A stretch of DNA of 64,000 nt from a virus. Under the pieces are notes generated by a model. It searched no databases and was not told the DNA's origin. It saw only the letters and a list, made by a program, of their open reading frames with translations. Shown here in pieces: positions 4,374 to 60,698 of this stretch. The stretch is taken from positions 1 to 64,000 of IMG/VR virus record IMGVR_UViG_3300036832_000855; one strand, 5' to 3'. The stretch's first letter is position 1; each line of letters starts with the position of its first letter. The translations under genes and the position numbers were made by a program.

Positions 4374-4404
4374 GGCGTTCTCCTCGGTCGGTAGGGTTTG
4401 CGCG

Positions 4405-23599: not shown

Positions 23600-23603
23600 G
23601 TGT

Positions 23604-23840
23604 TCACTCCTGGTCGGGGTTGTCACTCGATCGTAGCACAGGTCTTGTGCTTGGCACTACCTCCATCCACCAGTCACCCTGGAACGGAACGCCGCTCCCG
23701 GCAACCTCCAGCTCGATCAGCCCGCGACGCTCCAGGCGCCGGGCCATAGCGAGCTGAGGGCCGCGTACCCCCACGCGGCCCTCGCTCTCGATCCGCGCCA
23801 ATAGCGCGGTCTGCGCCGGGGTGAGTCGCCCCTCACTCAC
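23604..23840 (-). CDS. small wHTH-like protein
   Basis: LTPAQTALL...ARRLERRGLI. Confidence 0.5.
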   Translation of the reverse strand: MSEGRLTPAQTALLARIESEGRVGVRGPQLAMARRLERRGLIELEVAGSGVPFQGDWWMEVVPSTRPVLRSSDNPDQE

Positions 23841-24955: not shown

Positions 24956-25016
24956 CTCCTCGGTCGGGGGGGGCGGGTCTCTCTTGCCCGCACCTACATT
25001 GTATCACATCGTGAGC
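24956..25016 (-). promoter_or_regulatory. Promoter (TACAAT), 5' hairpin and CCGACCGAGGAG leader cassette
   Basis: GCGGG-caagagaga-CCCGC hairpin between the -10 and the RBS motif. Confidence 0.75.
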
Positions 25017-26482: not shown

Positions 26483-26679
26483 GCTTCTCCTCGGTCGGTG
26501 GTGAACTCGATCTCTGCCGGTTCGAGCGTCTGCTCCAGCAGCTCCGCGCATCGCGCGCAAGACAGGTAACCGCCGAGCACCGGATGGCGGCAGGCGCCCT
26601 CTGCCGGGCGGTCGCACCGCGCGAACGCCTGGCATGCAACGTTGTCGCTGGCCTCCAAGATCTTCACGGTGGTGGTCAT
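26479..26679 (-). CDS. small Cys-rich protein
   Basis: Exact CCGACCGAGGAG at 26684-26695. Confidence 0.7.
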   Translation of the reverse strand: MTTTVKILEASDNVACQAFARCDRPAEGACRHPVLGGYLSCARCAELLEQTLEPAEIEFTTDRGEA

Positions 26680-26894
26680 GCTTCTCCTCGGTCGGTGGCC
26701 TTGGCCTTCCTGGCCCTGGTCTTCTTCGGCGTGAGCGCCGTCACGCGCGCTCGGGCGTCCTCCTCGCTGGGGAACGGCTCGTGGTCCGCCATGCGGGTCG
26801 CGCCGGTCTCGTAGAAGTGGACGACCAAGTGCTGGCGCCCGCGGCGCCCCTTCGGATCGTGGACGTAGGCCACGCTCAGGGTCAGGTCAGGCAT
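26676..26894 (-). CDS. hypothetical protein
   Basis: Start MPDLTLS with AGGAG RBS. Confidence 0.6.
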   Translation of the reverse strand: MPDLTLSVAYVHDPKGRRGRQHLVVHFYETGATRMADHEPFPSEEDARARVTALTPKKTRARKAKATDRGEA

Positions 26895-27117: not shown

Positions 27118-27170
27118 CTTGTCTCCTCGGTCGGGGGGAGTTGCACTCTCATCATAGCACACGTCATGCG

Positions 27171-28415: not shown

Positions 28416-28636
28416 GTCTCCTCCTCGGTCGGTTGCACTACAGAGTTTAGCACACATCTTGCGCTCCAGGCTTCGCGCATCGCGTCCTCGCGCGTGCGCC
28501 CGTCACCGTTGATGTAGCCGAAGTCCGGCCGCTCGACGTAGGCGCGATAGCCGCCGCCCTTGAGCTTGACCACCCAGCCGACGAGTCGGTCGTCGAGCAT
28601 GATCCGGCGGCGGCGGCGGAGGATCGGCTCGGTCAC
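28412..28636 (-). CDS. hypothetical protein
   Basis: Coupled ORF. Confidence 0.55.
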   Translation of the reverse strand: MTEPILRRRRRIMLDDRLVGWVVKLKGGGYRAYVERPDFGYINGDGRTREDAMREAWSARCVLNSVVQPTEEET

Positions 28637-29060: not shown

Positions 29061-29257
29061 CAGGTCTCCTCGGTCGGGTCGACGCCGTTGGCCTTGGCGC
29101 GCTTGAGGCACGCCTTGCACGTCGGAGCATCGGTGGTGGCGACCGCGCCGCTCACGGCGCGGCCCGTGCAGAACAGGATCGTGTACCACCCGGCGCGCCG
29201 GGAGGGCTCACCAAGGTGAACCTTCCCGGTGCCGTAGTTGGTCGCGTACCGCCGCAT
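29060..29257 (-). CDS. small Zn-binding protein
   Basis: KVH...C...CKAC. Confidence 0.6.
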   Translation of the reverse strand: MRRYATNYGTGKVHLGEPSRRAGWYTILFCTGRAVSGAVATTDAPTCKACLKRAKANGVDPTEET

Positions 29258-30059: not shown

Positions 30060-30120
30060 CTCCTCGGTCGGTGGGAGCGGGCCTCTCGCCCGCACGTACA
30101 TCATAGCACACATCATGCGT
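30060..30120 (-). promoter_or_regulatory. Promoter (TATGAT), 5' hairpin and CCGACCGAGGAG leader cassette
   Basis: GCGGGC-GAGAG-GCCCGC hairpin. Confidence 0.75.
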
Positions 30121-30678: not shown

Positions 30679-30905
30679 TTGGTCTCCTCGGTCGGGGTGG
30701 GTGCGTCGACCAGCTCGACCGGCGTGTCCGGGTGAACGTACCGGTTGACCTGGCGAATGCCGTTGGTGGCGTCGATGCGGACCAGCCGCACCGGACCGTC
30801 GTCGTAGCCGTCGCGGACGAGGACGGTCTCGTACAGCGTGCGGCCGCCAACGATCCGGACCCACTGGTCGCCGTCGTAGCCGATCAGATCGAAGGCGGTG
30901 AGCAT
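30675..30905 (-). CDS. hypothetical protein
   Basis: Coupled start (TGATG). Confidence 0.6.
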   Translation of the reverse strand: MLTAFDLIGYDGDQWVRIVGGRTLYETVLVRDGYDDGPVRLVRIDATNGIRQVNRYVHPDTPVELVDAPTPTEETK

Positions 30906-31858: not shown

Positions 31859-31936
31859 CTCCTCGGTCGGGGGAGTCGCGCCCTCTCCGGGCGCAACTAC
31901 ATTGTACCACATCTGGCGCACGATGTGTGTTACCAT
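31859..31936. promoter_or_regulatory. Back-to-back promoters; minus-strand hairpin + RBS-motif cassette
   Basis: Minus TACAAT (31901-31906) then AGTTGCGCCC-GGAGA-GGGCGCGACT; plus TACCAT (31931-31936). Confidence 0.75.
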
Positions 31937-35458: not shown

Positions 35459-35493
35459 GTCCAGCCTCCTCGGGTCGGGTTGTACCGGGAAGA

Positions 35494-35712
35494 CTACGCG
35501 TCCTCGCGGACGGCGTGGTCCTGCCGGTTGGGCTGCGCCAGTGACGGCCGGTACGTCGGCTTGCGCCGGGGTGGCGCCTCTGGCGGCGGGCCCCAGTACT
35601 CGCGCTCCTCCGGTGTCATCTGGCGGATCGTGAGCAGCCCCTCTTCCTGCTGGCGGCGGATCCGCTCCAGCGCGGCCTCGTGCGCCAGCCTGGCGCGCTC
35701 CGCGCGATGCAT
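35494..35712 (-). CDS. hypothetical protein
   Basis: 72-aa ORF. Confidence 0.5.
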   Translation of the reverse strand: MHRAERARLAHEAALERIRRQQEEGLLTIRQMTPEEREYWGPPPEAPPRRKPTYRPSLAQPNRQDHAVREDA

Positions 35713-36861: not shown

Positions 36862-36969
36862 CTCCTCGGTCTAGGGGTTGCCGCGAGCGATGATAGCACA
36901 CACGGTGCACACGATGTGTGCTACAATGTAAGTGCGCCCGGAGAAGGCGCGCTCCCCCCGACCGAGGAG
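36862..36969. promoter_or_regulatory. Divergent promoter pair with RBS motifs and a plus-strand 5' hairpin
   Basis: GCACACGATGTGTGC-TACAAT (36907-36927), AGTGCGCC-cggagaa-GGCGCGCT, CCGACCGAGGAG (36958-36969). Confidence 0.8.
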
Positions 36970-36977
36970 GTACTGAA

Positions 36978-46923: not shown

Positions 46924-47268
46924 TCAGTCCAGCGGAGCGGCTGACAAGACCTGCGCGAAGTGTCGGCGCTCGGTGCCGACGCGGAACCCTCGATCCTTGA
47001 TCGGCGGGAACGCCACGTACTCGACCTCCAGCTCCAGCACTACCTTGATCCGGTCGCCCTCAGCGAACTGCCCCTGCACCGCCATCGGCGGCACCGGCGC
47101 CAGCTTCAACGTCGAGTCCGACAGGTCGTATTCCGAGCCCAGGTCGAAACTGAGCTGCTCCGCCGTGCCCACGATCGGGGAACCCAGCACCGCCACGTCC
47201 ATGTCTTCCAGCGACTCTTTCTCGCCCTGCTCGTCGACTACCTGGCCGTTGCTTTGCTGCTTCGCCAT
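46924..47268 (-). CDS. hypothetical protein (MAKQQSN...)
   Basis: AAGGAG RBS. Confidence 0.65.
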   Translation of the reverse strand: MAKQQSNGQVVDEQGEKESLEDMDVAVLGSPIVGTAEQLSFDLGSEYDLSDSTLKLAPVPPMAVQGQFAEGDRIKVVLELEVEYVAFPPIKDRGFRVGTERRHFAQVLSAAPLD

Positions 47269-47635
47269 CGTGTTCTCCTTGGGGATCAGGGTGCGGTGTG
47301 TGTCCCGTCGATGGCGCCGGGTAGTAGCGAGCGATCCACCAGTCGAGCCCCAGCTCGTTGATGAACTCCCAGTTCTCCGCGGTGAGCAACGTGCGTGGCA
47401 TACGCCGGAAAGCGCTCGTGTGCCGCGCGTGGCATCGCTCACAAAGTGCGATACCGCTGCGGGGATCCCAGACGAGGGTGCCGGGATCTAGACGGCGCTC
47501 GCGCTCGACGCGCTCAAGCCTCGCCTGCGTGATCACGTGATGACCCTGGACGCGCACTCTCCCCTTGCACACGACGCAGGGTTTGGGGGGTCGGCCGACT
47601 ACCTTCCGGTGCCACGCCCGAGCCGGATCTTTCAT
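47060..47635 (-). CDS. HNH-like endonuclease
   Basis: CVVC...HHVI...IALCERCHARH; the 3' part overlaps the next gene. Confidence 0.7.
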   Translation of the reverse strand: MKDPARAWHRKVVGRPPKPCVVCKGRVRVQGHHVITQARLERVERERRLDPGTLVWDPRSGIALCERCHARHTSAFRRMPRTLLTAENWEFINELGLDWWIARYYPAPSTGHTPHPDPQGEHDGEAAKQRPGSRRAGRERVAGRHGRGGAGFPDRGHGGAAQFRPGLGIRPVGLDVEAGAGAADGGAGAVR

Positions 47636-47762
47636 GGAGCGGGCGAGGACGGTCGGGACACGGACGGCACTCTACGCTCGATCTGAGACGTGTTGGTACT
47701 TCGATTCAGATGACGTCCGATCCACCTGCTTGCATCCCTCCTCCCGACCGAGGAGACACCAC

Positions 47763-48971
47763 GTGACGATCGCGCGTACGCCTTACCCCAGGGCGCTGGA
47801 GGAGTTTCCGGCTGTCCGCCAGAGCACCCTGTCGGACTTCGACGAGTGCGGCCTGGAGAGCCTGTTCGAGCGCCGCTACCGCAAGTCGTTCTCGGACGCG
47901 GCGTCCGGACGCGGGATCATCTGGCACCGGGCGGCGGCGAAGATGCTGCGCGAGATGGCCGCCCAGGGCGAGGAGCGCCTGGAGGTCGACGTCGGCCTCG
48001 CGATCATGCTGGAGACGCTGAGGCAGACCGACGTGCCGATCGAGGAGATGGTCACCTGCCCGATGAAGGAGATCCACGACCTGCTGTGGATGACGAAGAA
48101 GTTCTGCTCGGAGAAGACCTGGTCGATCGAGCGGCTCGTGTCGGTCGAGGAGCGCCTGGCGGCGACGCTGTACTACCCGAACCCGTACGGGGGGCAGGTT
48201 GAGCGGATCTTCTCCGGACAGCTCGACGCACTGTTCGCGGAGGGCGAGAACCTGGAGCGCGGGATCGTGGTGGACTGGAAAACTGGCTGGTGGCTGCCGC
48301 CGCCGTCGGAGATCTCCGAGGCGGGCTTCTTCCAGCAGCGCTCGTACGCGCTGCTCGGCTTCCGCAACCACTCGCCGTTCACGTCGATCACGTTGTACGA
48401 GTTCTACCCGCGCTACTCGCAGGCGCGCGAGGCGACGCTGTACCGCGACCAGCTCGACGAGATCGAGCTGACGATGTCCGCGCTGGTCGAGCGGTTCGAC
48501 CGGTCGGTGGAGGAGGACACGTGGCACGCGAGCCCCGGCAACCACTGCGGACACTGTCCGCGGCCGATGGCCTGCCCGATCTTCCCGAAGGCCCGGCGCC
48601 GGGGTGCGATCCGCTCCGCGGAGGAGGCAGAGCTGGCGGTCGAGCAGGTGCTGGTCGGCGAGAAGGCGATCGCCCAGAACAAGGAGGCCCTGAAGGCGTG
48701 GGCGCACGTTCACGGGCCGGTGCCCGTCCGCGACGCCAAGGCCAACCGGGTGTACGGCCACCGCGTACAGAAGCGTACGCGTCGGCCGACGAAGGAGGAG
48801 ACGGCGAACGCGCTGGCCCTCGGGCAGTCGCCCGAGGATCTCTACCGTGACGAGATCGGCACACGCTTCGACATCCACATCCCGAAGATCGAGCTGGAAC
48901 CAGAGCCGGACCTGGAGGAGCTGCTGCGGCAGTCCCTGGAGCTGGCAGAACAGAGGAGACGTAATGGCTGA
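47763..48971 (+). CDS. PD-(D/E)XK exonuclease (RecE/AddB/Cas4-like, Fe-S cysteines)
   Basis: GQLDAL...VVDWKTG...Q.RSY; C-terminal CGHCPRPMAC; GTG after exact CCGACCGAGGAG (47744-47755). Confidence 0.85.
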   Translation: MTIARTPYPRALEEFPAVRQSTLSDFDECGLESLFERRYRKSFSDAASGRGIIWHRAAAKMLREMAAQGEERLEVDVGLAIMLETLRQTDVPIEEMVTCPMKEIHDLLWMTKKFCSEKTWSIERLVSVEERLAATLYYPNPYGGQVERIFSGQLDALFAEGENLERGIVVDWKTGWWLPPPSEISEAGFFQQRSYALLGFRNHSPFTSITLYEFYPRYSQAREATLYRDQLDEIELTMSALVERFDRSVEEDTWHASPGNHCGHCPRPMACPIFPKARRRGAIRSAEEAELAVEQVLVGEKAIAQNKEALKAWAHVHGPVPVRDAKANRVYGHRVQKRTRRPTKEETANALALGQSPEDLYRDEIGTRFDIHIPKIELEPEPDLEELLRQSLELAEQRRRNG

Positions 48972-49899
48972 GACCGAGGTAAGGCCAGAGCCCGAGAGCA
49001 AGATGGTGGTGCGGGCGGTGCCCACGCCGCTGACCAAACCGGCGCGGTTCGCGTTCGACAACGAGCAGCTCGCGCTGATGAAGCGGACCGTCGCCCGCGG
49101 CGCTGACGACAACGCGTTCCTGCTGTTCCTGGAGCTGATCGGCAGATACAAGCTCGACCCGTTCGCCGGGCACGCGTACCTGGCGAAGATGCCGGGGCAG
49201 GACGGCGAGCCGCCGACGTTCAAGACGATCATCGCTCGCGACGGGCTGCTGGCGATCGCCAACCGGTACGAGGACTTCGGCGGCCTCGAAGGCGACGTGA
49301 TCTACGCCACCGACACGATCGCCCGCACCAAGGACGGCTTCGTCCACCTGTACCCGGAGATCGCCGCCGCCGAGCGGCTGAAGCAGGACATCGTCGGCGC
49401 GTGGTGCCGGTGCTTCCGCGCGGGCCGGGTGCCCACGTTCTTCCTGGCGAAGTGGGCGAGCTACAACCGCCCGAACATGAAGCGCACCTGGGGCAAGTAC
49501 CCGGACGCGATGATCCTGAAGGTGGCCGAGTCGATGGCGCTGCGCAAGCAGTTCTCGATCACGGGCATGATCCCCGAGGACGAGATCGGTGCGCGCTACG
49601 ACGACAAGCTCGGCGGGATCGTCGAAGGGACCGCGACCGTGATCGAGCAGGAGCCCGACTGGGGCCCGGACGACGAGATCGCCCAGCAGCTTCAGGTCGC
49701 GTTCAGCGAGGCGAACCGGATCCGGCCGGGGAGCTTCCTGCCGCAGAAGGTCCGGCTGAAGCTCGCCGGGGCCGACCAGGCGACGCGCATGGGGATCCTC
49801 CAGGAGGTCACCGACTTCGTGCTGAAGCACGGCGGCTCGCTACCCATTGAGGGCGAAGCCGTCGAGGATGCCCCTGAGGGCGCAGGGGAAGCCGTCTGA
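48964..49899 (+). CDS. bet: Bet/RecT single-strand annealing protein
   Basis: FLELIGRYKLDPF..Y...IIARDGLLAIANR...W.KYPDAMILKVAESMALRKQF. Confidence 0.88.
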   Translation: MAETEVRPEPESKMVVRAVPTPLTKPARFAFDNEQLALMKRTVARGADDNAFLLFLELIGRYKLDPFAGHAYLAKMPGQDGEPPTFKTIIARDGLLAIANRYEDFGGLEGDVIYATDTIARTKDGFVHLYPEIAAAERLKQDIVGAWCRCFRAGRVPTFFLAKWASYNRPNMKRTWGKYPDAMILKVAESMALRKQFSITGMIPEDEIGARYDDKLGGIVEGTATVIEQEPDWGPDDEIAQQLQVAFSEANRIRPGSFLPQKVRLKLAGADQATRMGILQEVTDFVLKHGGSLPIEGEAVEDAPEGAGEAV

Positions 49900-49939
49900 G
49901 CGCCTCCGAGCGCCTCCCCCTACCCACGGGTCACCCTGC

Positions 49940-50021
49940 AGAAACGGCCGCCTAAGGGCGGCCGTTTCGTGAGACGCGAGCGTTCAATCCCGACCGAGGA
50001 GTGAGGGCCGCTCGCGTTCTC
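49940..50021 (-). ncRNA. Candidate antisense sRNA complementary to the shared CCGACCGAGGAG RBS motif
   Basis: 12-bp stem (50021-50009 / 49982-49971) whose loop carries CUCCUCGGUCGGGAUUG; followed by the terminator; TATCCT at 50033-50028. Confidence 0.6.
49941..49968. terminator. Bidirectional intrinsic terminator
   Basis: GAAACGGCCGCC-TAAG-GGCGGCCGTTTC between convergent bet and tail genes. Confidence 0.8.
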
Positions 50022-50060
50022 GTGCTCAGGATACACGAGACGCGCGCCGATTCGGCCGTT

Positions 50061-51224
50061 TCACGTCTTGATCAGGTACGTCGCGGCGACCCAGGGCTGC
50101 ATCACGTTGTGCGCAGCGCCGCCGCCGTCGTTGTTGATCGGGTGGGTGTGGCGAGTGTTCGCGCCGCCCGACTGGGCGCTCCACGTGTGGGTGTGGTTGG
50201 CGCTGATCCCACCCGTCTGGGCGCTGAACGAGTGCGCGTGGCGCGCGGTCGCTCCACTGGTGCCCGATCCACCGCCGATCGTTGCGCAACCCTGCCCGCC
50301 GGACTGGGTGACGGGCGAGTTGCTCGGGGACAGCGCCAGGTTGTGCGCGTGGTCCGGGCTGTCGGTCCCCGTGGTACCCGAAACGGCGTGCGAGTGATCG
50401 CTGCTCACGTAGCTGGTGGTCCCCGAGCTGTAGTGCGAGTGGTCGGGCGTGTCGTTCCCGGTGCTCGCGCCGTGCGCGTGGACCGGCATCTCGGCGTTCG
50501 CGAGCAGGTGGGTCTCCTCGCCGCCCTTGCTGGCGAGCACCCGGCTCGTCAGGCCCGCACCCTGCCCGGCGCCGATGGGAGCGCGGCCACGGAAGTCTGG
50601 AAGGGCAAACGTGGTCGATCCATCGCCTTGCCCCCACGGTGAAGTAGTGCCGCCAAGCGCCGCGTACAGCGCCGGAAAGGTAGTGCGACTCACCGTGGAG
50701 CCGTCGCACACGAGCCATCCGGCAGGCGGGGTCTGGCAGGCGGTCAACTTGATGTCCCCGGGCTGCCAGAGCTGCGCGCCGTCGACACCGCCGTCCACGA
50801 GCTGGCGCAGGTTTGTGATGCGCGTCCCATCGAAGATCGCCTCGCCGATCTTGCGGTAATGCGGCGTCGCCGGGGTGCCGGTCAGCAGCGCCGTCAGCGC
50901 GAACGTGTAGTCGGTCGAGTCGGTCTCGGGCGGCGGCGGCGTCGGGTTGGTCGCGAACGAGTTGTTGCCGGTGGTCGCGAAGATGCTGTAGGTCCCGGCC
51001 GCGCCGGTGACGGTCGTCTGGACGGTCGCGGAGACATAGCGCCACAGGCCGTCGATCCCGAGCGACACCTGGGCGTTACCGACGCCCGCGGCGATCTGGA
51101 CCTGATTGGAGCCGATCTGCGTCAGGAACAGGTTGCGGCTGCTCACACCGACAAACTCCTGGAGCGCGTCCAGGAAGTCCTGCGGGATCGGACTGCCGTA
51201 GCTGAGCTGCCGGTGCTTGCTCAC
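50061..51224 (-). CDS. short tail fibre with tail-collar domain
   Basis: PGDIK...PPAGWLVCDGSTVSRTTFPALYAALG...FALPDFRGRAPIG; HxH repeats; GTGA coupling. Confidence 0.9.
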   Translation of the reverse strand: MSKHRQLSYGSPIPQDFLDALQEFVGVSSRNLFLTQIGSNQVQIAAGVGNAQVSLGIDGLWRYVSATVQTTVTGAAGTYSIFATTGNNSFATNPTPPPPETDSTDYTFALTALLTGTPATPHYRKIGEAIFDGTRITNLRQLVDGGVDGAQLWQPGDIKLTACQTPPAGWLVCDGSTVSRTTFPALYAALGGTTSPWGQGDGSTTFALPDFRGRAPIGAGQGAGLTSRVLASKGGEETHLLANAEMPVHAHGASTGNDTPDHSHYSSGTTSYVSSDHSHAVSGTTGTDSPDHAHNLALSPSNSPVTQSGGQGCATIGGGSGTSGATARHAHSFSAQTGGISANHTHTWSAQSGGANTRHTHPINNDGGGAAHNVMQPWVAATYLIKT

Positions 51225-52336
51225 AGGGTGCCTCCGATGTTCGTGATGCCGACGAAGAAGCCATCCGAATACCCCTCGGTGATCGCCAGGTGCGCGGGCG
51301 TGAGATCGCGGATGAACGGCCAGCCGAAGCCCGCGTACGCCTGCGGGATCTTGATCGAAACCGTGTTCGCAGGTGGGGAGTTCGTCTGGGTGCTGGAGCT
51401 GTTGCCTGGCGTGCCCGTCCAGGTGCCGTTCAGATCCCCCGAGAAGTAGGCGGGGGCGGTTGCCCCGAGCAGCGCGAGTGCGGAGTCGACGTAAACGGTC
51501 TGCGCAGGGGTCACCGTGAACTGGATACACGCCGTGACGTTGGTGCGGTTCGCGGTCGGCGTCCACGTCGTCGTGTACCGCGTCCACGCGGTCGTCAGCA
51601 CATTGTTGGCGCTTGTGCCGAGATCGCCGCCGACGCCCAGGATGACGGCTGCTCGCTCACCACCAGCGTTGCCCTTCAGGTAGACCGCGAACGTGTACGT
51701 GACCCCTGCGGTGAAGGTGCCCGGCAGAAGTACCTCAGCGCCCTCGGCAGCAAGCGAGCCGTTCGACACGATCCGCATGGTGTTGTTGCCCGACTGCGCC
51801 GCGCCGGTCTGGCAGGTGAGGGCTGCTCCGACGTTGTTGAAGTTGCGCGACGCCGCCCACGCAGCAGGCGCCGCGCCGACCGTGTCGTGCTCGAAGCTCG
51901 GGTTCGGGATGAGGTTCGTGTAGTCCGTCGCCGGGTTGTGCTCCTGGTAGGACCAGCTCGTGCCGAACAGCGCGGTGATGCTGGCCTCCCAGTCCAGGCC
52001 GCGCCCCTGGCCCTTGAGCCGCCGCATGGTCGCGAGCGCGAGCTGCTGGCGGGCGGCGAGCGTCAGCCCGGGCGGGTTGATCGGCAGGCCGAGGAGCTGC
52101 TCGAACATCGGCAGCAGCGCGTCGGCGCTGGCCGGAAGGAAGTTCAGGATCACTGCCTGGCGTGCCTGTTCGAGCCGCAGCAGCTCGTTCGCGACGACCT
52201 CCAGGACCGTCTGGACCTCGTAGGCCGAGCGTTCGAACGGCGGCACCTCGCTGAGCAGATCGGCCGGATCCTCGTCGACCTGCGCCATGGTGCCGGGGCC
52301 GAACACCGCAAGCGGATCGGTCACGGTCACCGACAT
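51221..52336 (-). CDS. baseplate wedge protein (gp48/P2 gpI-like) with inserted CBM4/9-like domain
   Basis: Follows baseplate J; LLPMFEQLLGL...PAHL; NLIPNPSFE. Confidence 0.75.
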   Translation of the reverse strand: MSVTVTDPLAVFGPGTMAQVDEDPADLLSEVPPFERSAYEVQTVLEVVANELLRLEQARQAVILNFLPASADALLPMFEQLLGLPINPPGLTLAARQQLALATMRRLKGQGRGLDWEASITALFGTSWSYQEHNPATDYTNLIPNPSFEHDTVGAAPAAWAASRNFNNVGAALTCQTGAAQSGNNTMRIVSNGSLAAEGAEVLLPGTFTAGVTYTFAVYLKGNAGGERAAVILGVGGDLGTSANNVLTTAWTRYTTTWTPTANRTNVTACIQFTVTPAQTVYVDSALALLGATAPAYFSGDLNGTWTGTPGNSSSTQTNSPPANTVSIKIPQAYAGFGWPFIRDLTPAHLAITEGYSDGFFVGITNIGGTL

Positions 52337-52340
52337 GGGC

Positions 52341-53825
52341 TCAGCCGTCCGTCAGGGTCACGGTGCCCAGTTGGGCCACCTGCGGCGACGCGCCCGCCGC
52401 GAGCGCGATGTCGTTTACGGCACCGTTGACGAGCAGGTTGTTGACCTTGTGCACGCCGGTGACGAAGAAGGCTGCCTGCACGTGCTCGTAGACGATCGTG
52501 TCGCCAGGCTGGAGGCCTTGCAGGTAGGTCGCGAGCGCGGTCATGATCGCCTGCCGGGTCGCGATCGTGTTGCTGGTGCCGTCGAGCGTGTAGCCCTTCT
52601 CGGGGACGACCGTGGCCGAGATCGTGACCGTCAGGATCGCGGACGTGACGACGGTTACCGTGGCGCCGATCGGAGCTTGACCCTGCCCAAGCCCCGGCGT
52701 CGGATCGAGGAACTGCTGAAGCGTGGTAACGACACTGGCCGTGACCGGCGTACCGTCTGCGTTCATCGCGACGACCAGCACGGTTCCGGCGCCGTTCCAG
52801 ACCGGGATCACCGCCGCCCGACCGACGCCCTCCGACGCCGCCCAGCGCCGGTAGTCGGTGACGTTGCCGCCGCCCGACGTGCCGACGTACTCGCCGAGGA
52901 TCCGCAGCCGGAAGTCGTCGTCGGATTCCTCCTCCTGACCGCCCTGCATCGCACTCGGGTTGAAGACCGAGATCACGGTCGGGAGGACGGTGTCGAGCGA
53001 CGTGACCGCATTCGCAGCAACGTTGCTCGCTGTACCCGGCGTGAGCGCCTGCGCTGCCAGTGTGATCCCCGACGTCGTGTTCGTCGTCGGCTCGATCACG
53101 GTCGTGTTCGGCGAGACAGCGCCCGTGTCCGCGTAGGTCAAAGCGGTCACCGAGGCGAGAAGCTGCCCGGTCGACTGCGCCGTCTGCGTGACGTACACGT
53201 TGTAGGAGGTCGCGCCGCTGACGGCAGTCCAAGTGATCGTGTTCCGAGACGTCGTGCCCGTGTTCACGACCGACACGTCGGCGGAGCCGGTCGTCTCCCC
53301 GAACGCGTTCAGCGCCGTCACGTGGTAGTAGCGCGTGCCCGCGGCCAGCGTGCCGCCCGTGGTGGCACCCGCGACCGCCACGCCGGTGGGCTTGGGCAGC
53401 GACGCCGACGACGTCCCGCTCGCGGTCGTCTGGTAGCTCTGCACGTCGCCGGTCAGCGGAGCGACGGCCGACGCCTGCGTTCCGGCAGCGATCAGGGTCG
53501 GCGCCGACGCAAGGAACGTCAGCGAGCCGACGGCTGACGTCGCCGGGTTGCGCGTCAGCCCGAACGTGGTTCCGTGCTCGTCCAGGTAGTCGCCCCACGC
53601 GGTCGACGGGAACGCCGCGGCGATCGTCTCGGTCATCGCGTCCCACAGCCGCGCGCACTCCATCGCGGGCGGTTGCGTCATGTCCCAGTAGAACGAGCCC
53701 TCGCGAGTGTCCACCCAATCCGGGTCGTCGGTGGCCAGCCCGGCGTTGGCGTCCTGGTCCATCCGGGCCCGGACGCGCGCGAGCGTCTCGGAGAAGATCT
53801 CGGTCAGGTCAGTGACGTCTGTCAT
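52341..53825 (-). CDS. baseplate J-like protein
   Basis: DTREGS..A.GDYLDEHG..GLTR; GGQEEESDDDFRLR..GGNVTDYRRWA. Confidence 0.92.
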   Translation of the reverse strand: MTDVTDLTEIFSETLARVRARMDQDANAGLATDDPDWVDTREGSFYWDMTQPPAMECARLWDAMTETIAAAFPSTAWGDYLDEHGTTFGLTRNPATSAVGSLTFLASAPTLIAAGTQASAVAPLTGDVQSYQTTASGTSSASLPKPTGVAVAGATTGGTLAAGTRYYHVTALNAFGETTGSADVSVVNTGTTSRNTITWTAVSGATSYNVYVTQTAQSTGQLLASVTALTYADTGAVSPNTTVIEPTTNTTSGITLAAQALTPGTASNVAANAVTSLDTVLPTVISVFNPSAMQGGQEEESDDDFRLRILGEYVGTSGGGNVTDYRRWAASEGVGRAAVIPVWNGAGTVLVVAMNADGTPVTASVVTTLQQFLDPTPGLGQGQAPIGATVTVVTSAILTVTISATVVPEKGYTLDGTSNTIATRQAIMTALATYLQGLQPGDTIVYEHVQAAFFVTGVHKVNNLLVNGAVNDIALAAGASPQVAQLGTVTLTDG

Positions 53826-58400: not shown

Positions 58401-60698
58401 AAGTACGGCGGTGCCGTTGACCACGTTAGATGTGAGTCCGGTGCCCACGGTGGCCACAGTGCCGTTCTTCTGAACCCAAATCTGGATGCTCTGGCCCGCC
58501 GCGGCCTGCTGCACAGAGCCCTCGATGTGGTAGTAGCCAGCCGTCTGGATCTGGATGCGGCCATTAGCGGTGCTGACAAGTCCAGACGTGTCGTAGCTGG
58601 CCGCGTCGAGCGGGATCTTCTGCCATGAACTCGCAGTGACCGACAGGGCGGCACTCCGGTACGCGCGCGCCGCTATCGCCCCGGTAGTCAGGCCGCTCTG
58701 GAGCTGCGCCTGCTGGCCGACCTGAACGACGGAGAGGTAGTTACTCCAGGTGCCGACTATGTTCATCGCGACGGCTGTACTCGCGTTCCAGGCGCCGAGT
58801 TGGAGATAGTCGCCCGCGTTGCACTGGATCACGTCCGAACCGACCGACTCTTGATTCACGGTTCCGACACCGCTACCCGTCGCCACCTGTGCGCCGTTCT
58901 TGAACAGCAGCGCTAGGCACGACGCGGAGCCGATGATGGCGAAGTTGCACTGGTAATAGCCAGTCACAGGACAGGTGTAGCGGTTGGTCGAGAGTGAGAA
59001 GTTCCCAGCGGGGTCGAAGCTAATGGTGTCAACGGGAACTGCCGCAGCGGTAGAGGCGGGAATCGTGTACGCAGCACCACGGTACGCCCGCGCTGCGCTC
59101 GTGACCGCCGGGCTGCTCGGCAGCGCCGACACCATCGAGACGGCGAGGAAGTTGCGCCAGGGCGTAGTCGATAGCGCTTGACTTGTGCCGCCCGGAGTCC
59201 AGACGTAAAGCTCTAGGTAATCACCCACGTTCAGTTGCAGGGTGTCGCTCAGCACGGCACCGGTCCCGCCCGAGCCGCTGGCGATGATGTTGCCCTCACT
59301 GCCCTCGACGCCATTTCGGTTCACGTAGATCTGCATGGACCCGGAAGTCATGCTTCCGGCCATCACCTCGGCGTCGATCTGGTAGTAGCCCGCGGTCTGG
59401 ATCTGGATGCGGTTATTCGCGAGCTGCACAAGGCCGCTCGTGTCGTAGTTGATCGCGTCGAGCGGAATCTTCTGCGCACCACCGGTCAGCGTGAACGCAC
59501 CGCTACGGTACGCCCGCGCGGCAACCGCCCCGGTGGTGAGGCCACTCGCGAGCTGTGTCGTCTGACCGACCATCGAGACCGAGAAGTAACAGCCGCTACT
59601 GCTCGGGTAGATCGGCTTCGCCGCTGCGTAGGTCCAGAACTCTAGATAGTCCCCGGCGTTGCAGAACACGATGTCGCTGACCGTTGCCCCGGCCTCGACA
59701 GGGTTGGCAGCGACCGTCGCACCCGACGCCGCCGAGGTGCCGTTCTTGTAGATCGCGGCGACGTAAGAGTCGGTCGTCGTGACATCGTTCACAGTGAACC
59801 CGGCGTTACACTGGTAGTACCCGGTGGCAGGCACGGTGTAGCGGCTGTTCGCCAAGTTGAAACACGCACCGGGGTCGTAGGCGATCGTGTCTACTGGAAA
59901 CTTCGTCCATCCGGTTCCCAGCGTGTATGCGGCGCTGCGCCATGCCCTCGCCTGCGTGACCGGCGAGACCGTCCCCGAGATCGAGGAGACGAGGGACGCG
60001 GAGAGGTAGTTGCTGGCGGCGTTGCCGGTGTACGTGTTGACGGCACCGGGCGAGTTCTGGAGCGCGTACAGCTCCAGGTAGTCGCCAGCGTTGCACTGGA
60101 CGACGTCAGCTACAGCCGCGCCGTAGTCCTGACCTGACGAGGTCGCGGCGAATATGCCGCCTGTAGTGACACGAACGCCGTTCTTGTAGATCGCCGCTAT
60201 GCACTCACCCGTCGCGCCCCCGGACGGCCCGCCGGACCATGCGCCCTCAACCTGGTAGTAGCCCGCGGTCTGAACCTGAATGCGACCGCTGGCGATGCTG
60301 ACCATTCCGCTCGTATCAAAGACGGTCGTGTCGACCGCGATCTTCGTCCATGTCGCACCCGACGGAAGGCTCACCGCCGCGTTGCGGTACGCGCGCGCCG
60401 CCACGGCCAGCGCCGGGATGCTCACGTCCGAGGAGTTCGCCCCCGAGTTGTCGACCGTCGTGACCCCAGCGCCCTTGAAGTTCAGGTTCGTCCGGGCAGG
60501 AAGGCTCGCGCCCTGGTTCTGAATCGTGTGCCCAGCACCGCCGCCGCCCCCGCTGCCCCCGGTCGCGGACACCCACGTAGACCCGTTCCACCAGTAGAGG
60601 ATGTTCGCCCCGGTGTCGTAGTACATCTCGCCATTCGCGGGCGACGCCGGGGCTCCAGCCAGGCGCGGCGGATGCAGGCGGCCAATGGTGTCGGGCAT
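55434..60698 (-). CDS. giant fibre/adhesin with 10 tandem C1q/TNF-like domains
   Basis: Repeat ARAYR..KIPxDT..FD..RY.CP..GYY.V..IYKNG..SD.IQCNAGDYLEL..NYLSV x10; start re-called to ATG 60698 with GGAGAG RBS. Confidence 0.85.
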   Translation of the reverse strand: MPDTIGRLHPPRLAGAPASPANGEMYYDTGANILYWWNGSTWVSATGGSGGGGGAGHTIQNQGASLPARTNLNFKGAGVTTVDNSGANSSDVSIPALAVAARAYRNAAVSLPSGATWTKIAVDTTVFDTSGMVSIASGRIQVQTAGYYQVEGAWSGGPSGGATGECIAAIYKNGVRVTTGGIFAATSSGQDYGAAVADVVQCNAGDYLELYALQNSPGAVNTYTGNAASNYLSASLVSSISGTVSPVTQARAWRSAAYTLGTGWTKFPVDTIAYDPGACFNLANSRYTVPATGYYQCNAGFTVNDVTTTDSYVAAIYKNGTSAASGATVAANPVEAGATVSDIVFCNAGDYLEFWTYAAAKPIYPSSSGCYFSVSMVGQTTQLASGLTTGAVAARAYRSGAFTLTGGAQKIPLDAINYDTSGLVQLANNRIQIQTAGYYQIDAEVMAGSMTSGSMQIYVNRNGVEGSEGNIIASGSGGTGAVLSDTLQLNVGDYLELYVWTPGGTSQALSTTPWRNFLAVSMVSALPSSPAVTSAARAYRGAAYTIPASTAAAVPVDTISFDPAGNFSLSTNRYTCPVTGYYQCNFAIIGSASCLALLFKNGAQVATGSGVGTVNQESVGSDVIQCNAGDYLQLGAWNASTAVAMNIVGTWSNYLSVVQVGQQAQLQSGLTTGAIAARAYRSAALSVTASSWQKIPLDAASYDTSGLVSTANGRIQIQTAGYYHIEGSVQQAAAGQSIQIWVQKNGTVATVGTGLTSNVVNGTAVLSDVIQCNAGDYLELYVYSTIAGINPGAQQTFLAVSLVSSISAGVAPVTQARANRSAAFTLPASTNTKIPFDTVSFDPGGNFQLANGRYICPASGYYQVDGQINLSVGTGSIEAIIYKNGSQAATGTFATAYSSSVSDIIYCQAGDYLELWGYGTGGALQVATVTNYLSVSMVGQTGQFVQYAMNTAARAYRNAALTLSAGAYTKIPVDTVTYDAGSNLQIANGRYVCPTAGYYHVEGQVETNAASGSLLIAQINVNGAARTDGGRIIPGSGGAWAVTVSDVLQLSAGDYVELYAYSGVGDPLLTSSAFNYLSVVKVDTGGSPGAGWKTYNGSGTPTLAQVPGNNGDFCVRQSDGEVFQMVGGAWTDQGWSLAGANLNATSAARAWRNGAFSITAGTWTKIPVDTVPFDPGNHFGVSPSSYVCPVAGYYEVSGMVQVQPLAAATRVLAAIYKNGGNIAQGESDAVAGGFPAVVVSDIINCVAGDKLELWGYAGTTAPLQTGYNANYLSVSLVAATAVQQQPLQPASQAKAYRSAAFTQSTVNAWAKVPIDTVGFDAGGNVQIANNRYVCPTGGYYQVDAALAGYNSGGVASGYVGIYKNGTQWSALPIAAPVSGGTAYGEVSDQIQCNAGDYIELWSYCNLALTVVASPSQNYLSVSLIGTAPIAAPSYAARAYRNAAYTPPANTYTKIPVDTVSFDPSGCIQIANSRYVCPVAGVYAVDAEFGSSASATGTYTNVLVAIYKNGAMVSRAYSQPAVANYYGAAVSDKVQCNAGDYIELWCYSGQGTALDVGIPITENFLSVSLLTQAPAPLPVTTPLVSSSGLPSNPVDGQEFYFVADQTNGVVWHLKYRAASTSTHKWELVGGSDMQAGPSGSTGTSSTSAVALSGGPTITVPLPGDYDVTWGCFGQVTVSAQVNLQTAVGVNGALPTGWVAAQSVATALWGGGDMVREQVFANLTAAQVLSLMVWNNAANAANYANGWIKAKPRRVG

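What the first reader, a model, noticed from the sequence alone, without database searches (positions are those of the whole stretch)
49940..50033. Candidate phage sRNA antisense to the shared ribosome-binding motif of about 20 genes: an RNA master switch
SEEN: the 12-mer CCGACCGAGGAG sits 4-8 nt before start codons 12 times exactly, plus about 8 variants. The one exact copy with no gene behind it is at 49990-50001. On the minus strand, just after the last tail gene stops (50061), the order is: TATCCT (50033-50028); 6 nt; a 12-bp stem (GAGAACGCGAGCG / CGCUCGCGUCUC, one bulge) whose 26-nt loop reads GCCCUCACUCCUCGGUCGGGAUUGAA; then the intrinsic terminator at 49968-49941. The loop is the exact reverse complement of the motif, including the anti-SD CUCCUC. 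Pairing extends further in several targets, e.g. TCACTCCT-GGTCGGGGTTG at 23604-23622 and CTCCTCGGTCG--ATTG at 1071-1085. On the plus strand the copy lies beyond the bet terminator, so the antisense strand is the one likely transcribed. KNOWN: loop-displayed anti-SD seeds are how many bacterial sRNAs block initiation, and the CCGACCG part is not explained by pairing to the 16S rRNA 3' end. INFERENCE: an ~80-nt RNA, made from its own promoter or from the late tail mRNA 3' UTR, silences the whole accessory/early regulon (including the RecE-Bet operon) at the level of translation, either at the early-to-late switch or in lysogeny. I do not know of a described phage system where one sRNA and a genome-wide RBS tag are matched like this.
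Basis: partly seen in the sequence, partly recalled or inferred. Interest (0 to 1): 0.95.

Follow-up and report, generated by a model that had tools for sequence, protein, structure and literature searches.

The report
Phage RNA hairpin mirroring ribosome-site tag
An uncultured 122-kb phage puts one private 12-base ribosome-binding tag before about 28 non-structural genes and keeps a single mirror copy in a conserved RNA hairpin at the end of its tail-gene transcript, which probably pairs with the tags to control those genes together, though no transcript has been seen.

Summary
CCGACCGAGGAG occurs 13 times in the window (0.09 expected) and 22 times in the 122,419-bp phage. Nineteen copies lie 2-8 nt before start codons. 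The copy at 49990-50001 has no gene behind it.

The minus strand reads, in order: tail-fibre stop, a TATCCT box, a 12-bp stem, a loop holding the exact antisense of the tag, then a terminator.

New here:
- All 12 assessable relatives found through RecT, and 17 elements in all, keep this unit.
- The 15-nt core CUCCUCGGUCGGGAU is invariant in 17 of 17.
- All 11 pairs of the enclosing stem show double changes (0 of 500 shuffles reach this).
- A TAnnnT box is present in 17 of 17.
- G-U pairs and U-rich tails place the terminator on the minus strand.

So a minus-strand, non-coding, anti-tag RNA element is well supported.

Not shown: expression, any regulatory effect, or its timing. Tag and loop are both invariant in this clade, so their co-variation cannot be tested. 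Wobble pairs do not settle the strand of the main hairpin. Part of the loop is predicted to be paired.

The closest known system is the start-associated sequences of Cluster K mycobacteriophages, whose role is unknown.

This scan has reported the same tag-plus-mirror design in at least 8 other phage genomes (AI notes; I checked only the Cluster K claim, in part).

The parts
49987..50001 (-). Invariant loop core CUCCUCGGUCGGGAU, the exact antisense of the tag plus GAU
   Evidence: Identical in 17 of 17 elements while the flanks diverge.
49990..50001 (+). Orphan copy of the tag CCGACCGAGGAG, with no start codon behind it
   Evidence: No start codon lies 4-8 nt downstream in the window or in relatives.
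50009..50021 (-). 5' arm of the main stem, GAGAACGCGAGCG (one bulged A)
   Evidence: Folds (arms z = -4.9). In alignment A5, helices P1 and P2 show changes on both sides in 11 of 11 pairs.
49971..49982 (-). 3' arm of the main stem, CGCUCGCGUCUC
49935..49968 (-). Terminator hairpin GAAACGGCCGCC-CUUA-GGCGGCCGUUUC plus its tail
   Evidence: Across 16 homologues the minus strand has 16 G-U pairs against 3 on the plus strand, and T-richer tails. A5 terminator cells: 22 G-U against 6 A-C. The generic scan does not call it.
50028..50033 (-). TATCCT, a -10-like box 6 nt before the stem
   Evidence: A TAnnnT hexamer sits at the same place in 17 of 17 elements. It resembles the phage's own TGnTAnnnT promoters. 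In the window the TG lies 1 nt too close. No TSS data.
50061..51587 (-). Tail-fibre gene (tail collar domain) whose stop codon precedes the element
   Evidence: PF07484, 3.7e-19. A homologue lies upstream and co-oriented in 16 of 16 relatives.
48847..49899 (+). RecT gene, convergent with the element
   Evidence: PF03837, 3e-21. Convergent in the 15 relatives where tblastn found it; none was found in L029, where only about 230 nt lie beyond the element.
36958..36969 (+). Tag before a 219-aa ORF, within a promoter plus 5' hairpin cassette
47744..47755 (+). Tag before the PD-(D/E)XK exonuclease gene (402 aa)
   Evidence: PF12705, 9.3e-10.
4380..4391 (-). Tag before a 62-aa ORF
24956..24967 (-). 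Tag before a 109-aa ORF (cassette)
26487..26498 (-). Tag before a 143-aa ORF
26684..26695 (-). Tag before a 66-aa ORF
27123..27134 (-). Tag before a 76-aa ORF
28421..28432 (-). Tag before a 96-aa ORF
29066..29077 (-). Tag before an 80-aa ORF
30060..30071 (-). Tag before a 55-aa ORF (cassette)
30684..30695 (-). Tag before a 68-aa ORF
31859..31870 (-). Tag before a 78-aa ORF (cassette)

Best explanation
The stretch 50033-49935 on the minus strand is a conserved non-coding RNA element of about 85-100 nt. It lies between the stop codon of the late tail-fibre gene and that transcript's terminator.

The element is made either as the 3' end of the late tail mRNA, or from its own TAnnnT promoter, or both. 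A co-varying stem presents the invariant sequence CUCCUCGGUCGGGAU. That sequence is the exact complement of the phage's private start-associated tag CCGACCGAGGAG, which includes the Shine-Dalgarno core and sits before about 28 small non-structural genes.

The most likely mechanism has two steps. First the exposed CGGUC / CUCCUCGGUC part of the loop pairs with the tag. Then the duplex extends to 12-13 bp and covers the ribosome-binding site. That would lower translation of the whole tagged gene set together, most plausibly once late transcripts accumulate.

Shown: the anatomy, the conservation, the stem co-variation, the terminator polarity and the complementarity.
Inferred: that the element is transcribed, that pairing happens in vivo, the sign of the effect, and its timing.
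For: 1. The tag is real and tied to starts: 13 copies in the window against 0.09 expected; 19 of 22 exact genome copies precede start codons.

2. Element in every assessable relative. The first RecT search gave 7 relatives, all 7 with the element. The RecT profile search gave 13 close relatives. One contig ends about 150 nt after RecT. The other 12 all hold the element.

3. Seventeen elements in all were collected. All 17 have an identical 15-nt core, while the arm sequences differ completely between groups.

4. The stem is kept by compensatory change. In alignment A5 (17 sequences), P1 and P2 have 11 of 11 pairs with changes on both sides and 92-93% of cells paired. Zero of 500 shuffles reach the observed values, and the slid controls drop to 32-51% paired. 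With the core forced unpaired, the arm folds give z = -1.3 to -4.9, negative in 14 of 14.

5. Minus polarity:
   - Terminator hairpins have 16 G-U pairs on the minus strand against 3 on the plus strand across 16 homologues, with T-richer tails on the minus strand.
   - A5 terminator cells show 22 G-U against 6 A-C, and P2 shows 11 against 4.
   - The order hairpin then terminator holds only on the minus strand, with a constant 18-27 nt gap.

6. A TAnnnT box is present in 17 of 17 elements. Nine of the 17 read TGTTATGCT, a full TGnTAnnnT like the phage's own promoters before tagged genes.

7. Synteny: a tail-fibre homologue lies upstream and co-oriented in 16 of 16 relatives. The plus-strand neighbour between RecT and the element varies.

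8. The element is not coding. The box-to-core distance varies as 26, 29, 30, 31, 32, 33 and 71 nt. No plus-strand start follows the tag.

9. The tag marks non-structural genes. Of the 10 tagged window ORFs scanned against Pfam, 8 gave no family; one is a PD-(D/E)XK exonuclease and one has only a weak, sub-threshold FG-GAP hit. A further tagged ORF looks SSB-like by eye from its first residues. No copy at up to 1 mismatch lies in the tail module at 50.1-61 kb.

10. Loop-only duplex ranking recovers tagged starts, plus indel variants of the tag at other starts.

11. A parallel in print: in Cluster K phage Adephagia the tag marks right-arm genes, and the paper places the early lytic genes in the right arm (PMC11373665, passages). 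I found its single reverse-oriented copy in a hairpin loop in the gene 92-93 spacer. The same paper says late transcription appears to start in that spacer.
Against: - No RNA evidence of any kind. No RNA-holding run was listed, which counts as no evidence either way.
- Tag and loop are both invariant in all relatives, so the decisive co-variation test is impossible in this clade.
- The strand of the main hairpin is not settled:
   - The plus-strand fold is at least as stable in 12 of 14 homologues.
   - P1 has 3 A-C cells and no G-U.
   - A WC-only mismatch count gives 2 G-T against 2 A-C.
   - Alignment A5 was fitted to a minus-strand model, which biases the wobble counts.
- The loop is partly closed in predictions. 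GGGA of the core has an unpaired probability of at most 0.39 in all 14 homologues (at most 0.16 in 10), and UCC at most 0.33 in 11 of 14.
- Whole-RNA cofold gain is modest: a mean of -6.4 kcal/mol for 14 tagged sites against -2.9 for 157 others. Only 5 of the top 14 are tagged. This used a crude gene list that left out ORFs under 60 aa.
- In the window the box reads GTGTATCCT, so the TG is 1 nt out of register with the extended -10. The generic scan finds no promoter and no terminator there.
- If the box is a promoter of the same class as the promoters of the tagged genes, the RNA would be made together with its targets. A late switch would then not follow.
- The conserved GAU (AUC on the plus strand) next to the tag is explained neither by target pairing nor, in groups A and B, by the P3 helix.
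Confidence: 0.55

Rival explanations
1. The plus-strand RNA is the functional one. The hairpin would display a sense copy of the tag, including its Shine-Dalgarno core, as a decoy or sponge. It would titrate whatever recognises the tag, such as 30S subunits or a phage or host RNA-binding protein. Alternatively it would act in cis on read-through transcripts from the RecT side.
For: - The hairpin is symmetric and folds as well or better on the plus strand in 12 of 14 homologues.
- P1 has 3 A-C cells and 0 G-U cells.
- The conserved AUC directly 5' of the tag is not needed for antisense pairing with targets.
- In Adephagia, the strand on which the hairpin is followed by a U-tailed terminator carries the sense copy.
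Against: - On the plus strand the copy lies after the terminator hairpin, with no terminator behind it, and it runs into the antisense of the tail-fibre gene.
- The plus-strand upstream gene differs among relatives, while the fixed hairpin-to-terminator spacing holds only on the minus strand.
- Terminator wobble pairs and U-rich tails are of minus polarity.
- The conserved TAnnnT box is on the minus strand.
Confidence: 0.15
2. The tag and its orphan copy are sites for a sequence-specific protein acting on DNA or RNA, for example a translational regulator in the manner of T4 RegA (recalled, not from a call). The orphan would be an extra high-affinity site or an autoregulatory site, and no RNA-RNA pairing would be involved.
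For: - The CCGACC half of the tag is not explained by 16S pairing.
- The invariance of tag and orphan over a diverged clade fits one shared binding partner.
- The authors of PMC11373665 speculate that a phage protein may act on SAS genes (passage).
Against: - A protein site does not require a co-varying stem around it, nor a fixed position between a stop codon and a terminator.
- The orphan is in the opposite orientation to nearby transcription, so a minus-strand RNA would not carry the sense site.
- No candidate protein was identified here.
Confidence: 0.1
3. The copy is an evolutionary relic of a lost gene start, or a chance match inside an ordinary compound terminator that only stabilises the 3' end of the late mRNA.
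For: - The region is a convergent junction where hairpins are expected anyway.
- Rfam has no family there above its gathering score.
Against: - A chance 12-mer is expected 0.09 times per window.
- The 15-nt core is identical in 17 of 17 elements while everything around it has diverged and the stem is kept by double changes.
- No ORF follows the copy in any relative.
- A relic would decay.
Confidence: 0.03

Closest known systems
[quoted passage not shown] 2011, PMC3203893; Freeman et al. 2024, PMC11373665; PMC12699233). I saw passages only; supplements are closed.
   Same: - A private 12-13-nt motif containing AGGAG, conserved beyond what 16S pairing explains, lies 3-9 nt before the starts of 13-19 genes outside the structural module.
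- About half of these are preceded by an upstream element with a putative promoter and an inverted repeat. Here that is promoter plus a co-varying 5' hairpin plus the tag.
- One copy lies in reverse orientation (legend of Fig. S3; confirmed for Adephagia). I found that copy in a hairpin loop in the spacer where late transcription is reported to start.
   Different: - The motif sequence is unrelated (GGGATAGGAGCCC against CCGACCGAGGAG).
- The phages are unrelated: a 60-kb temperate siphovirus against a 122-kb phage with baseplate and Mu gp48-type tail genes.
- In Adephagia the mirror copy would sit in the 5' region of a late transcript, and the adjacent U-tailed hairpin faces the other way. Here it sits at the 3' end of the late tail transcript.
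- The reverse copy is not kept in every Cluster K phage; Keshu and Shandong1 diverge. Here it is kept in 17 of 17.
- No antisense-RNA role is proposed in the passages I read: the word counts for 'antisense' and 'sRNA' are 0 and for 'noncoding' 0.
Trans-acting base-pairing sRNAs that block ribosome-binding sites with a C-rich loop, such as the Staphylococcus aureus Rsa RNAs (PMC2790875: title and start of abstract seen in a search listing; the UCCC-loop detail is recalled).
   Same: A stem-loop followed by a terminator, with a conserved pyrimidine-rich loop complementary to Shine-Dalgarno regions of several mRNAs. The seed is more conserved than the rest of the RNA.
   Different: - Those sRNAs exploit the generic SD sequence and have partial, varied complementarity.
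- Here the targets carry a dedicated, identical 12-nt tag, so the regulon is defined by a private address rather than by the generic SD.
- Here the RNA is encoded by a phage and acts on the phage's own genes.
3'-UTR-derived sRNAs of bacteria (recalled: CpxQ, SroC, DapZ), and the UTR-derived sRNAs of flagellar regulons (PMC10578931, abstract start seen).
   Same: The regulatory hairpin lies between the stop codon and the terminator of an mRNA and shares that terminator. An internal promoter-like box may give a second, shorter transcript.
   Different: No processing or expression data exist here. The parent mRNA is a phage late structural transcript, and the presumed targets are earlier genes of the same phage.
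Phage antisense immunity RNAs such as P1/P7 c4, lambda OOP and P22 sar (recalled, from no call).
   Same: A small phage RNA pairs with a region that includes a ribosome-binding site on a phage mRNA.
   Different: Those RNAs act on one operon, often in cis or on one or two sites. Here one RNA is matched to about 28 dispersed sites that share an identical tag.

Membership tests
SAS/ESAS-type start-associated tag system (Cluster K kind) | A 12-13-nt motif containing the SD core sits at a fixed short distance before many start codons and is far over-represented | tested here: met
   13 copies in the window against 0.09 expected. 19 of 22 exact copies lie 2-8 nt before starts. 28 ORFs at up to 1 mismatch.
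SAS/ESAS-type start-associated tag system (Cluster K kind) | Conservation extends beyond bases that can pair with the 16S 3' end | tested here: inconclusive
   The host, and so its 16S rRNA, is unknown. Against the general bacterial anti-SD (recalled) only AGGAG pairs, and CCGACC is unexplained.
SAS/ESAS-type start-associated tag system (Cluster K kind) | A subset is preceded by an extended element with a promoter and an inverted repeat | tested here: met
   At least 8 cassettes read TGnTAnnnTGT, then a co-varying GC hairpin, then the tag. These promoters are predictions.
SAS/ESAS-type start-associated tag system (Cluster K kind) | Sequence homology to GGGATAGGAGCCC, or a Cluster K phage backbone | tested here: not met
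   The motif is different. There is no nucleotide match to any phage record and only distant baseplate hits. This is an analogue, not a member.
Trans-acting RBS-blocking sRNA | A discrete transcript with its own promoter and terminator | tested here: inconclusive
   A TAnnnT box is present in 17 of 17 elements and the terminator has minus polarity. The generic scan finds neither, and no RNA data exist.
Trans-acting RBS-blocking sRNA | A seed complementary to the translation initiation regions of the targets, more conserved than the rest of the RNA | tested here: met
   The 15-nt core is invariant in 17 of 17 elements, while 11 of 11 stem pairs vary. It is the exact complement of the tag.
Trans-acting RBS-blocking sRNA | The seed is single-stranded and accessible | tested here: inconclusive
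   CGGUC is open in most homologues (0.8-1.0 in 11 of 14). GGGA is mostly paired (unpaired probability at most 0.39; at most 0.16 in 10 of 14), and UCC is mostly paired in 11 of 14.
Trans-acting RBS-blocking sRNA | A measured effect on target translation or stability | not testable with these tools
   The phage is uncultured, so this needs a reporter or an in vitro assay.
3'-UTR-derived sRNA | Lies between the stop codon and the terminator of a co-oriented mRNA | tested here: met
   Window: stop at 50061-50063, element at 50033-49969, terminator at 49968-49941. A co-oriented tail-fibre homologue lies upstream in 16 of 16 relatives.
Any Rfam family | A score at or above the family's gathering threshold | tested here: not met
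   The best hits are CcsR1 at 15.6 bits (threshold 65.3) and Hrs13 at 15 bits (threshold 52).

The most novel reading that the evidence does not exclude
Private ribosome-site tags and one matched mirror RNA may form a general phage device for timing translation. Late transcripts would carry the mirror, at the 3' end of the tail operon here and possibly in the late leader of Cluster K mycobacteriophages. By pairing with an identical 12-nt address, they would switch off some 20-30 early or accessory genes at once.

This would explain what start-associated sequences are for, a question open since 2011. It would also explain why tag and mirror stay frozen across a diverged clade: one RNA is locked to many targets.
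Probability: 0.35. Interest if true: 0.9.

Novelty: new variant of a known kind. Interest (0 to 1): 0.78.

Why it matters
Start-associated sequences were described in 2011, and the papers I read still call their role unknown. A single conserved RNA carrying the exact mirror of such a tag offers a concrete mechanism that can be tested.

If it holds, it would be an example of a phage regulon addressed by a private RNA tag rather than by promoters. It would also be a form of temporal control that acts on translation.

Such a tag-and-mirror pair would be a compact, orthogonal translation switch for synthetic biology in high-GC bacteria.

Cluster K phages can be cultured and engineered, and they seem to have a comparable layout. 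The idea can therefore be tested there even though this phage is uncultured.

Tried and rejected
What was tried without result, or considered and rejected:

1. Expression. The look-up of sequencing runs (kind rna) on window 47000-53000 listed no RNA holder.

2. Cultured relatives. Megablast of 48800-51800 against phage records gave no match. tblastn with the baseplate J protein gave only hits below 60% identity, to Firmicutes and Arthrobacter phages.

3. Co-variation of tag and loop.
   - I looked for relatives with a different tag by counting the tag in five related records, reading two records in full, and running a RecT profile search.
   - Every relative uses the same tag. The only distant RecT hit (L375, 30% identity) was not informative.

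4. Wider searches for the element.
   - Four pattern scans of viral contigs gave mostly chance or coding hits. IPTEE-type coding explains many of them.
   - nhmmer separated the true elements from the rest.
   - The metagenome scan added 2 new elements among 23 hits.
   - The genome-contig scan gave 32 pattern hits and no full element, so no prophage or host was found.

5. Strand from wobble pairs in the main hairpin: inconclusive.

6. MAFFT and RNAalifold on 8 sequences failed to align the main stem. I replaced them with a group C seed, a covariance model and a realignment.

7. Whole-sRNA cofold ranking of targets was weak. A genome-wide sliding duplex scan timed out, and a seeded version replaced it.

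8. Rfam: nothing above threshold.

9. A coding reading was rejected because of variable spacing and the absence of starts.

10. The plus-strand ORF 50001-50642 (213 aa) has no Pfam family. It is antisense to the tail-fibre gene, and its GTG overlaps the tag with zero spacing.

11. Cluster K. I first read the Adephagia copy as the opposite polarity, a sense copy before a leftward U-tailed hairpin. I then found the published statement that late rightward transcription starts in that spacer. The position of the TSS relative to the hairpin remains unknown to me. The RNA-seq figures and the supplements could not be seen and may bear on this.

12. Print searches for an antisense RNA matched to a start tag found none (and word searches). 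The ZoeJ paper cited there is not in the library.
Full report
**What the window is.** The window is the first 64 kb of a 122,419-bp virus record with direct terminal repeats and 68% G+C. It has baseplate J, Mu gp48-like and tail-collar genes on the minus strand at 50-54 kb. A PD-(D/E)XK exonuclease and a RecT gene lie on the plus strand and end at 49899. No cultured phage is close: megablast gave no match, and baseplate protein hits were all below 60% identity.

**The observation.**
- CCGACCGAGGAG occurs 13 times exactly in the window against 0.09 expected, and 22 times in the genome.
- Nineteen of the 22 lie 2-8 nt before an ATG or GTG. Two (103505, 114196) have no start behind them. One, at 49990-50001 on the plus strand, is the orphan.
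- At up to one mismatch there are 34 copies, 28 of them before ORFs of at least 40 aa.
- I scanned 10 tagged window ORFs against Pfam. Eight gave no family. One is the exonuclease, and one has only a weak, sub-threshold FG-GAP hit. A further tagged ORF outside the window looks like an SSB by eye from its first residues.
- No copy lies in the tail module.

On the minus strand it reads:
- tail-fibre stop (50063-50061);
- TATCCT (50033-50028);
- 5' arm (50021-50009);
- a 26-nt loop containing CUCCUCGGUCGG;
- 3' arm (49982-49971);
- a GC-rich hairpin with AAA/UUU at its base (49968-49941).

The region folds far better than shuffles on both strands, with z about -5.6.

**Relatives.**
- A RecT-anchored search makes no assumption about the element. 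It returned 7 IMG/VR loci at 67-79% identity, and all 7 carry the unit.
- A RecT profile search returned 13 close relatives. One contig ends about 150 nt past RecT. The other 12 all have the element.
- Pattern scans, nhmmer and one metagenome scan raised the total to 17 elements, roughly 13 of them clearly distinct.
- None was found among 32 pattern hits in the bacterial genome collection.
- Related complete or near-complete genomes carry 18-23 exact copies of the same tag. Two more distant partial genomes use the same tag with a looser first two bases.

**What is conserved.**
- The 15 nt CTCCTCGGTCGGGAT are identical in 17 of 17 elements. The arms around them differ entirely between three groups of sequences yet always pair.
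- A covariance model built from six group C sequences was used to realign all 17. Helices P1 and P2 then show changes on both sides in 11 of 11 pairs and 92-93% paired cells.
- None of 500 column shuffles reaches the observed values. Sliding the partners by 1-3 columns drops pairing to 32-51%. The alignment was fitted to the structure, which favours it.
- An independent per-sequence test with the core forced unpaired gives negative z-scores in 14 of 14, from -1.3 to -4.9.
- The distance from box to core varies by non-multiples of three, and no start codon follows the tag on the plus strand in any relative. The element is therefore not coding.

**Which strand.** Three lines point to the minus strand.
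1. Only on the minus strand is the order hairpin then terminator, with a constant 18-27 nt gap. The plus-strand neighbour between RecT and the element varies.
2. The terminator hairpins carry 16 G-U pairs when read on the minus strand and 3 on the plus strand. The tails after the stem are T-richer on the minus strand. In alignment A5 the terminator cells show 22 G-U against 6 A-C.
3. A TAnnnT hexamer sits 26-33 nt before the core in 16 elements and 71 nt before it in the one element with an insertion. That makes 17 of 17: TATGCT 12 times, TATCCT 4 times, TAAGCT once.

In nine elements the box reads TGTTATGCT. That is the TGnTAnnnT form of the phage's own predicted promoters, which sit before tagged genes.

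A tail-fibre homologue lies upstream and co-oriented in 16 of 16 relatives. The element is therefore inside the 3' end of the late tail transcript, whether or not the box is a promoter.

Several results cut the other way.
- The main hairpin does not reveal its strand. The plus-strand fold is at least as stable in 12 of 14 homologues. WC-only mismatches split 2 G-T against 2 A-C. P1 has 3 A-C cells and no G-U, while P2 has 11 G-U against 4 A-C.
- In the window the box is one base out of register with an extended -10.
- A generic consensus scan calls neither a promoter nor a terminator.

**Mechanism.** Complementarity to the tag is exact over 12 nt, and 13 nt where the target has a C before the tag.
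- Predicted ensembles keep CGGUC open in most homologues (unpaired probability 0.8-1.0 in 11 of 14). They pair GGGA with either UCCU of the core or an upstream (AU)CCC.
- The likely seed is therefore the apical CGGUC, or CUCCUCGGUC in group C, followed by extension over the Shine-Dalgarno core.
- Duplex ranking with the loop alone recovers tagged starts. It also recovers indel variants of the tag before other ORFs at 23634, 35494, 101084, 109754 and 122404.
- A cruder whole-RNA cofold calculation gives only a modest advantage: -6.4 against -2.9 kcal/mol, with 5 of the top 14 tagged.

I therefore regard the pairing as plausible but not demonstrated. Repression is the most likely sign because the duplex would cover the SD. 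The position behind the tail-fibre gene suggests late timing. That timing would not hold if the RNA comes mainly from a promoter of the same class as its targets' promoters.

**Comparison with what is known.** The tag system matches the start-associated sequences of Cluster K mycobacteriophages in every architectural respect I could test. The sequence and the phage backbone are unrelated, so this is an analogue and not a member.
- The papers I read in passages call the role of SAS unknown and do not mention an antisense RNA.
- A figure legend in Pope et al. notes a single complementary-strand site in three genomes.
- In Adephagia I found that site at 58682-58694, in the loop of a hairpin in the gene 92-93 spacer.
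- If the start lies upstream of the hairpin, the late leader would carry the mirror of the tag. I could not see the figures.
- The adjacent U-tailed hairpin faces the other way, and the copy is not kept in every Cluster K phage. The parallel is therefore suggestive only.

Base-pairing sRNAs with C-rich loops that block ribosome-binding sites, and 3'-UTR-derived sRNAs, are the closest mechanistic classes. The new feature is a dedicated identical address on many genes matched by one RNA.

**Earlier notes of this scan.** A word search returned eight follow-up reports of the same tag-plus-mirror design in other phage genomes. Two of them claim that tag and mirror change together in relatives. These are AI notes and I did not verify them, apart from the partial Cluster K check. 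They prompted me to re-read the Adephagia paper. Notes on this same genome describe the tag itself, which I confirmed.

**Verdict.** A conserved, structured, minus-strand element displaying the antisense of the phage's start tag is well supported. Its action as a translational switch is the best explanation, at about 0.55. It remains untested because there is no transcript evidence, and no tag-loop co-variation is available in this clade.

Noticed in passing
window 36890-36975 (+); also 24967-25010, 30071-30110, 31870-31910 (-), and genome 83815, 90298, 91308, 97806: Repeated cassette: TAGCGCAC-N3-5-GTGTGCTAnnnTGT, then a GC hairpin whose arms co-vary between copies (GCGGGC/GCCCGC, GCGCCC/GGCGCGC, GCGGCCG/CGGCCGC, GGAGGC/GCCTCC), then the tag and a start codon. 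The first part is a near-palindrome overlapping an extended -10, so it looks like an operator. Twelve promoter-pattern hits occur in the genome, 10 of them directly before tagged or tag-like starts. The cassette resembles Cluster K ESAS.
   Followed up: partly
L333 (Adephagia JF704105 58000-59646), locus positions 575-720: The single reverse-oriented SAS copy of Adephagia sits in the loop of the hairpin GTCGACCAG...CTGGTCGAC, next to a GGCCCC...GGGGCC hairpin, in the gene 92-93 spacer where late transcription is reported to start. The spacer is conserved in 146 Cluster K records. An invariant forward-strand TAGACT lies upstream in 7 of 7 aligned phages. Keshu and Shandong1 do not keep the SAS copy itself.
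   Followed up: partly
window 49987-49989 (+), i.e. GAU in the minus-strand RNA: The three bases next to the mirror of the tag are invariant in 17 of 17 elements. None of the 33 gene-associated or other non-orphan copies at up to 1 mismatch listed has AUC directly before the tag (one, at 109734, has AAUCCCGA four bases upstream of it). In groups A and B these bases are not in the P3 helix (9 unpaired cells at one pair). They are unexplained.
   Followed up: no
genome-wide exact tag copies, e.g. window 36950-36957, 47736-47743, 27135-27142: Six of 22 exact tag copies have CUCC within the 8 nt upstream. This could pair with the GGAG of the tag and leave CCGACCG in a small loop. That would be a possible cis anti-SD, and a loop-loop contact with CGGUCGG of the hairpin.
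   Followed up: no
window 50018-50040 (-): A third hairpin (UCUCGUG-UAUCCUGAG-CACGAGA) encloses the -10-like box and competes with the bottom of the main stem in the window. It is absent from relatives.
   Followed up: partly
L085 7641-7814: One relative has an insertion of about 40 nt with two extra small hairpins between the 5' arm and the core. It still keeps the box, core, outer stem and terminator.
   Followed up: no
window 23600-23634 (-), 35470-35494 (-); genome 101084, 109754, 122404 (-): Indel variants of the tag lie before ORF starts, for example CCCCGACC-AGGAG, CCGACCCGAGGAG, CCGACCGACAGGAG, CCGACCGACCGAGGGG and CCGACCGAGAGGAG. The regulon is therefore larger than mismatch-only counts suggest.
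   Followed up: no
L012, L029, L036, L062, L178 upstream of the element: Several relatives carry a second, partial tail-fibre paralogue (residues 275-508, 34-42% identity) or an extra gene between the main fibre gene and the element.
   Followed up: no
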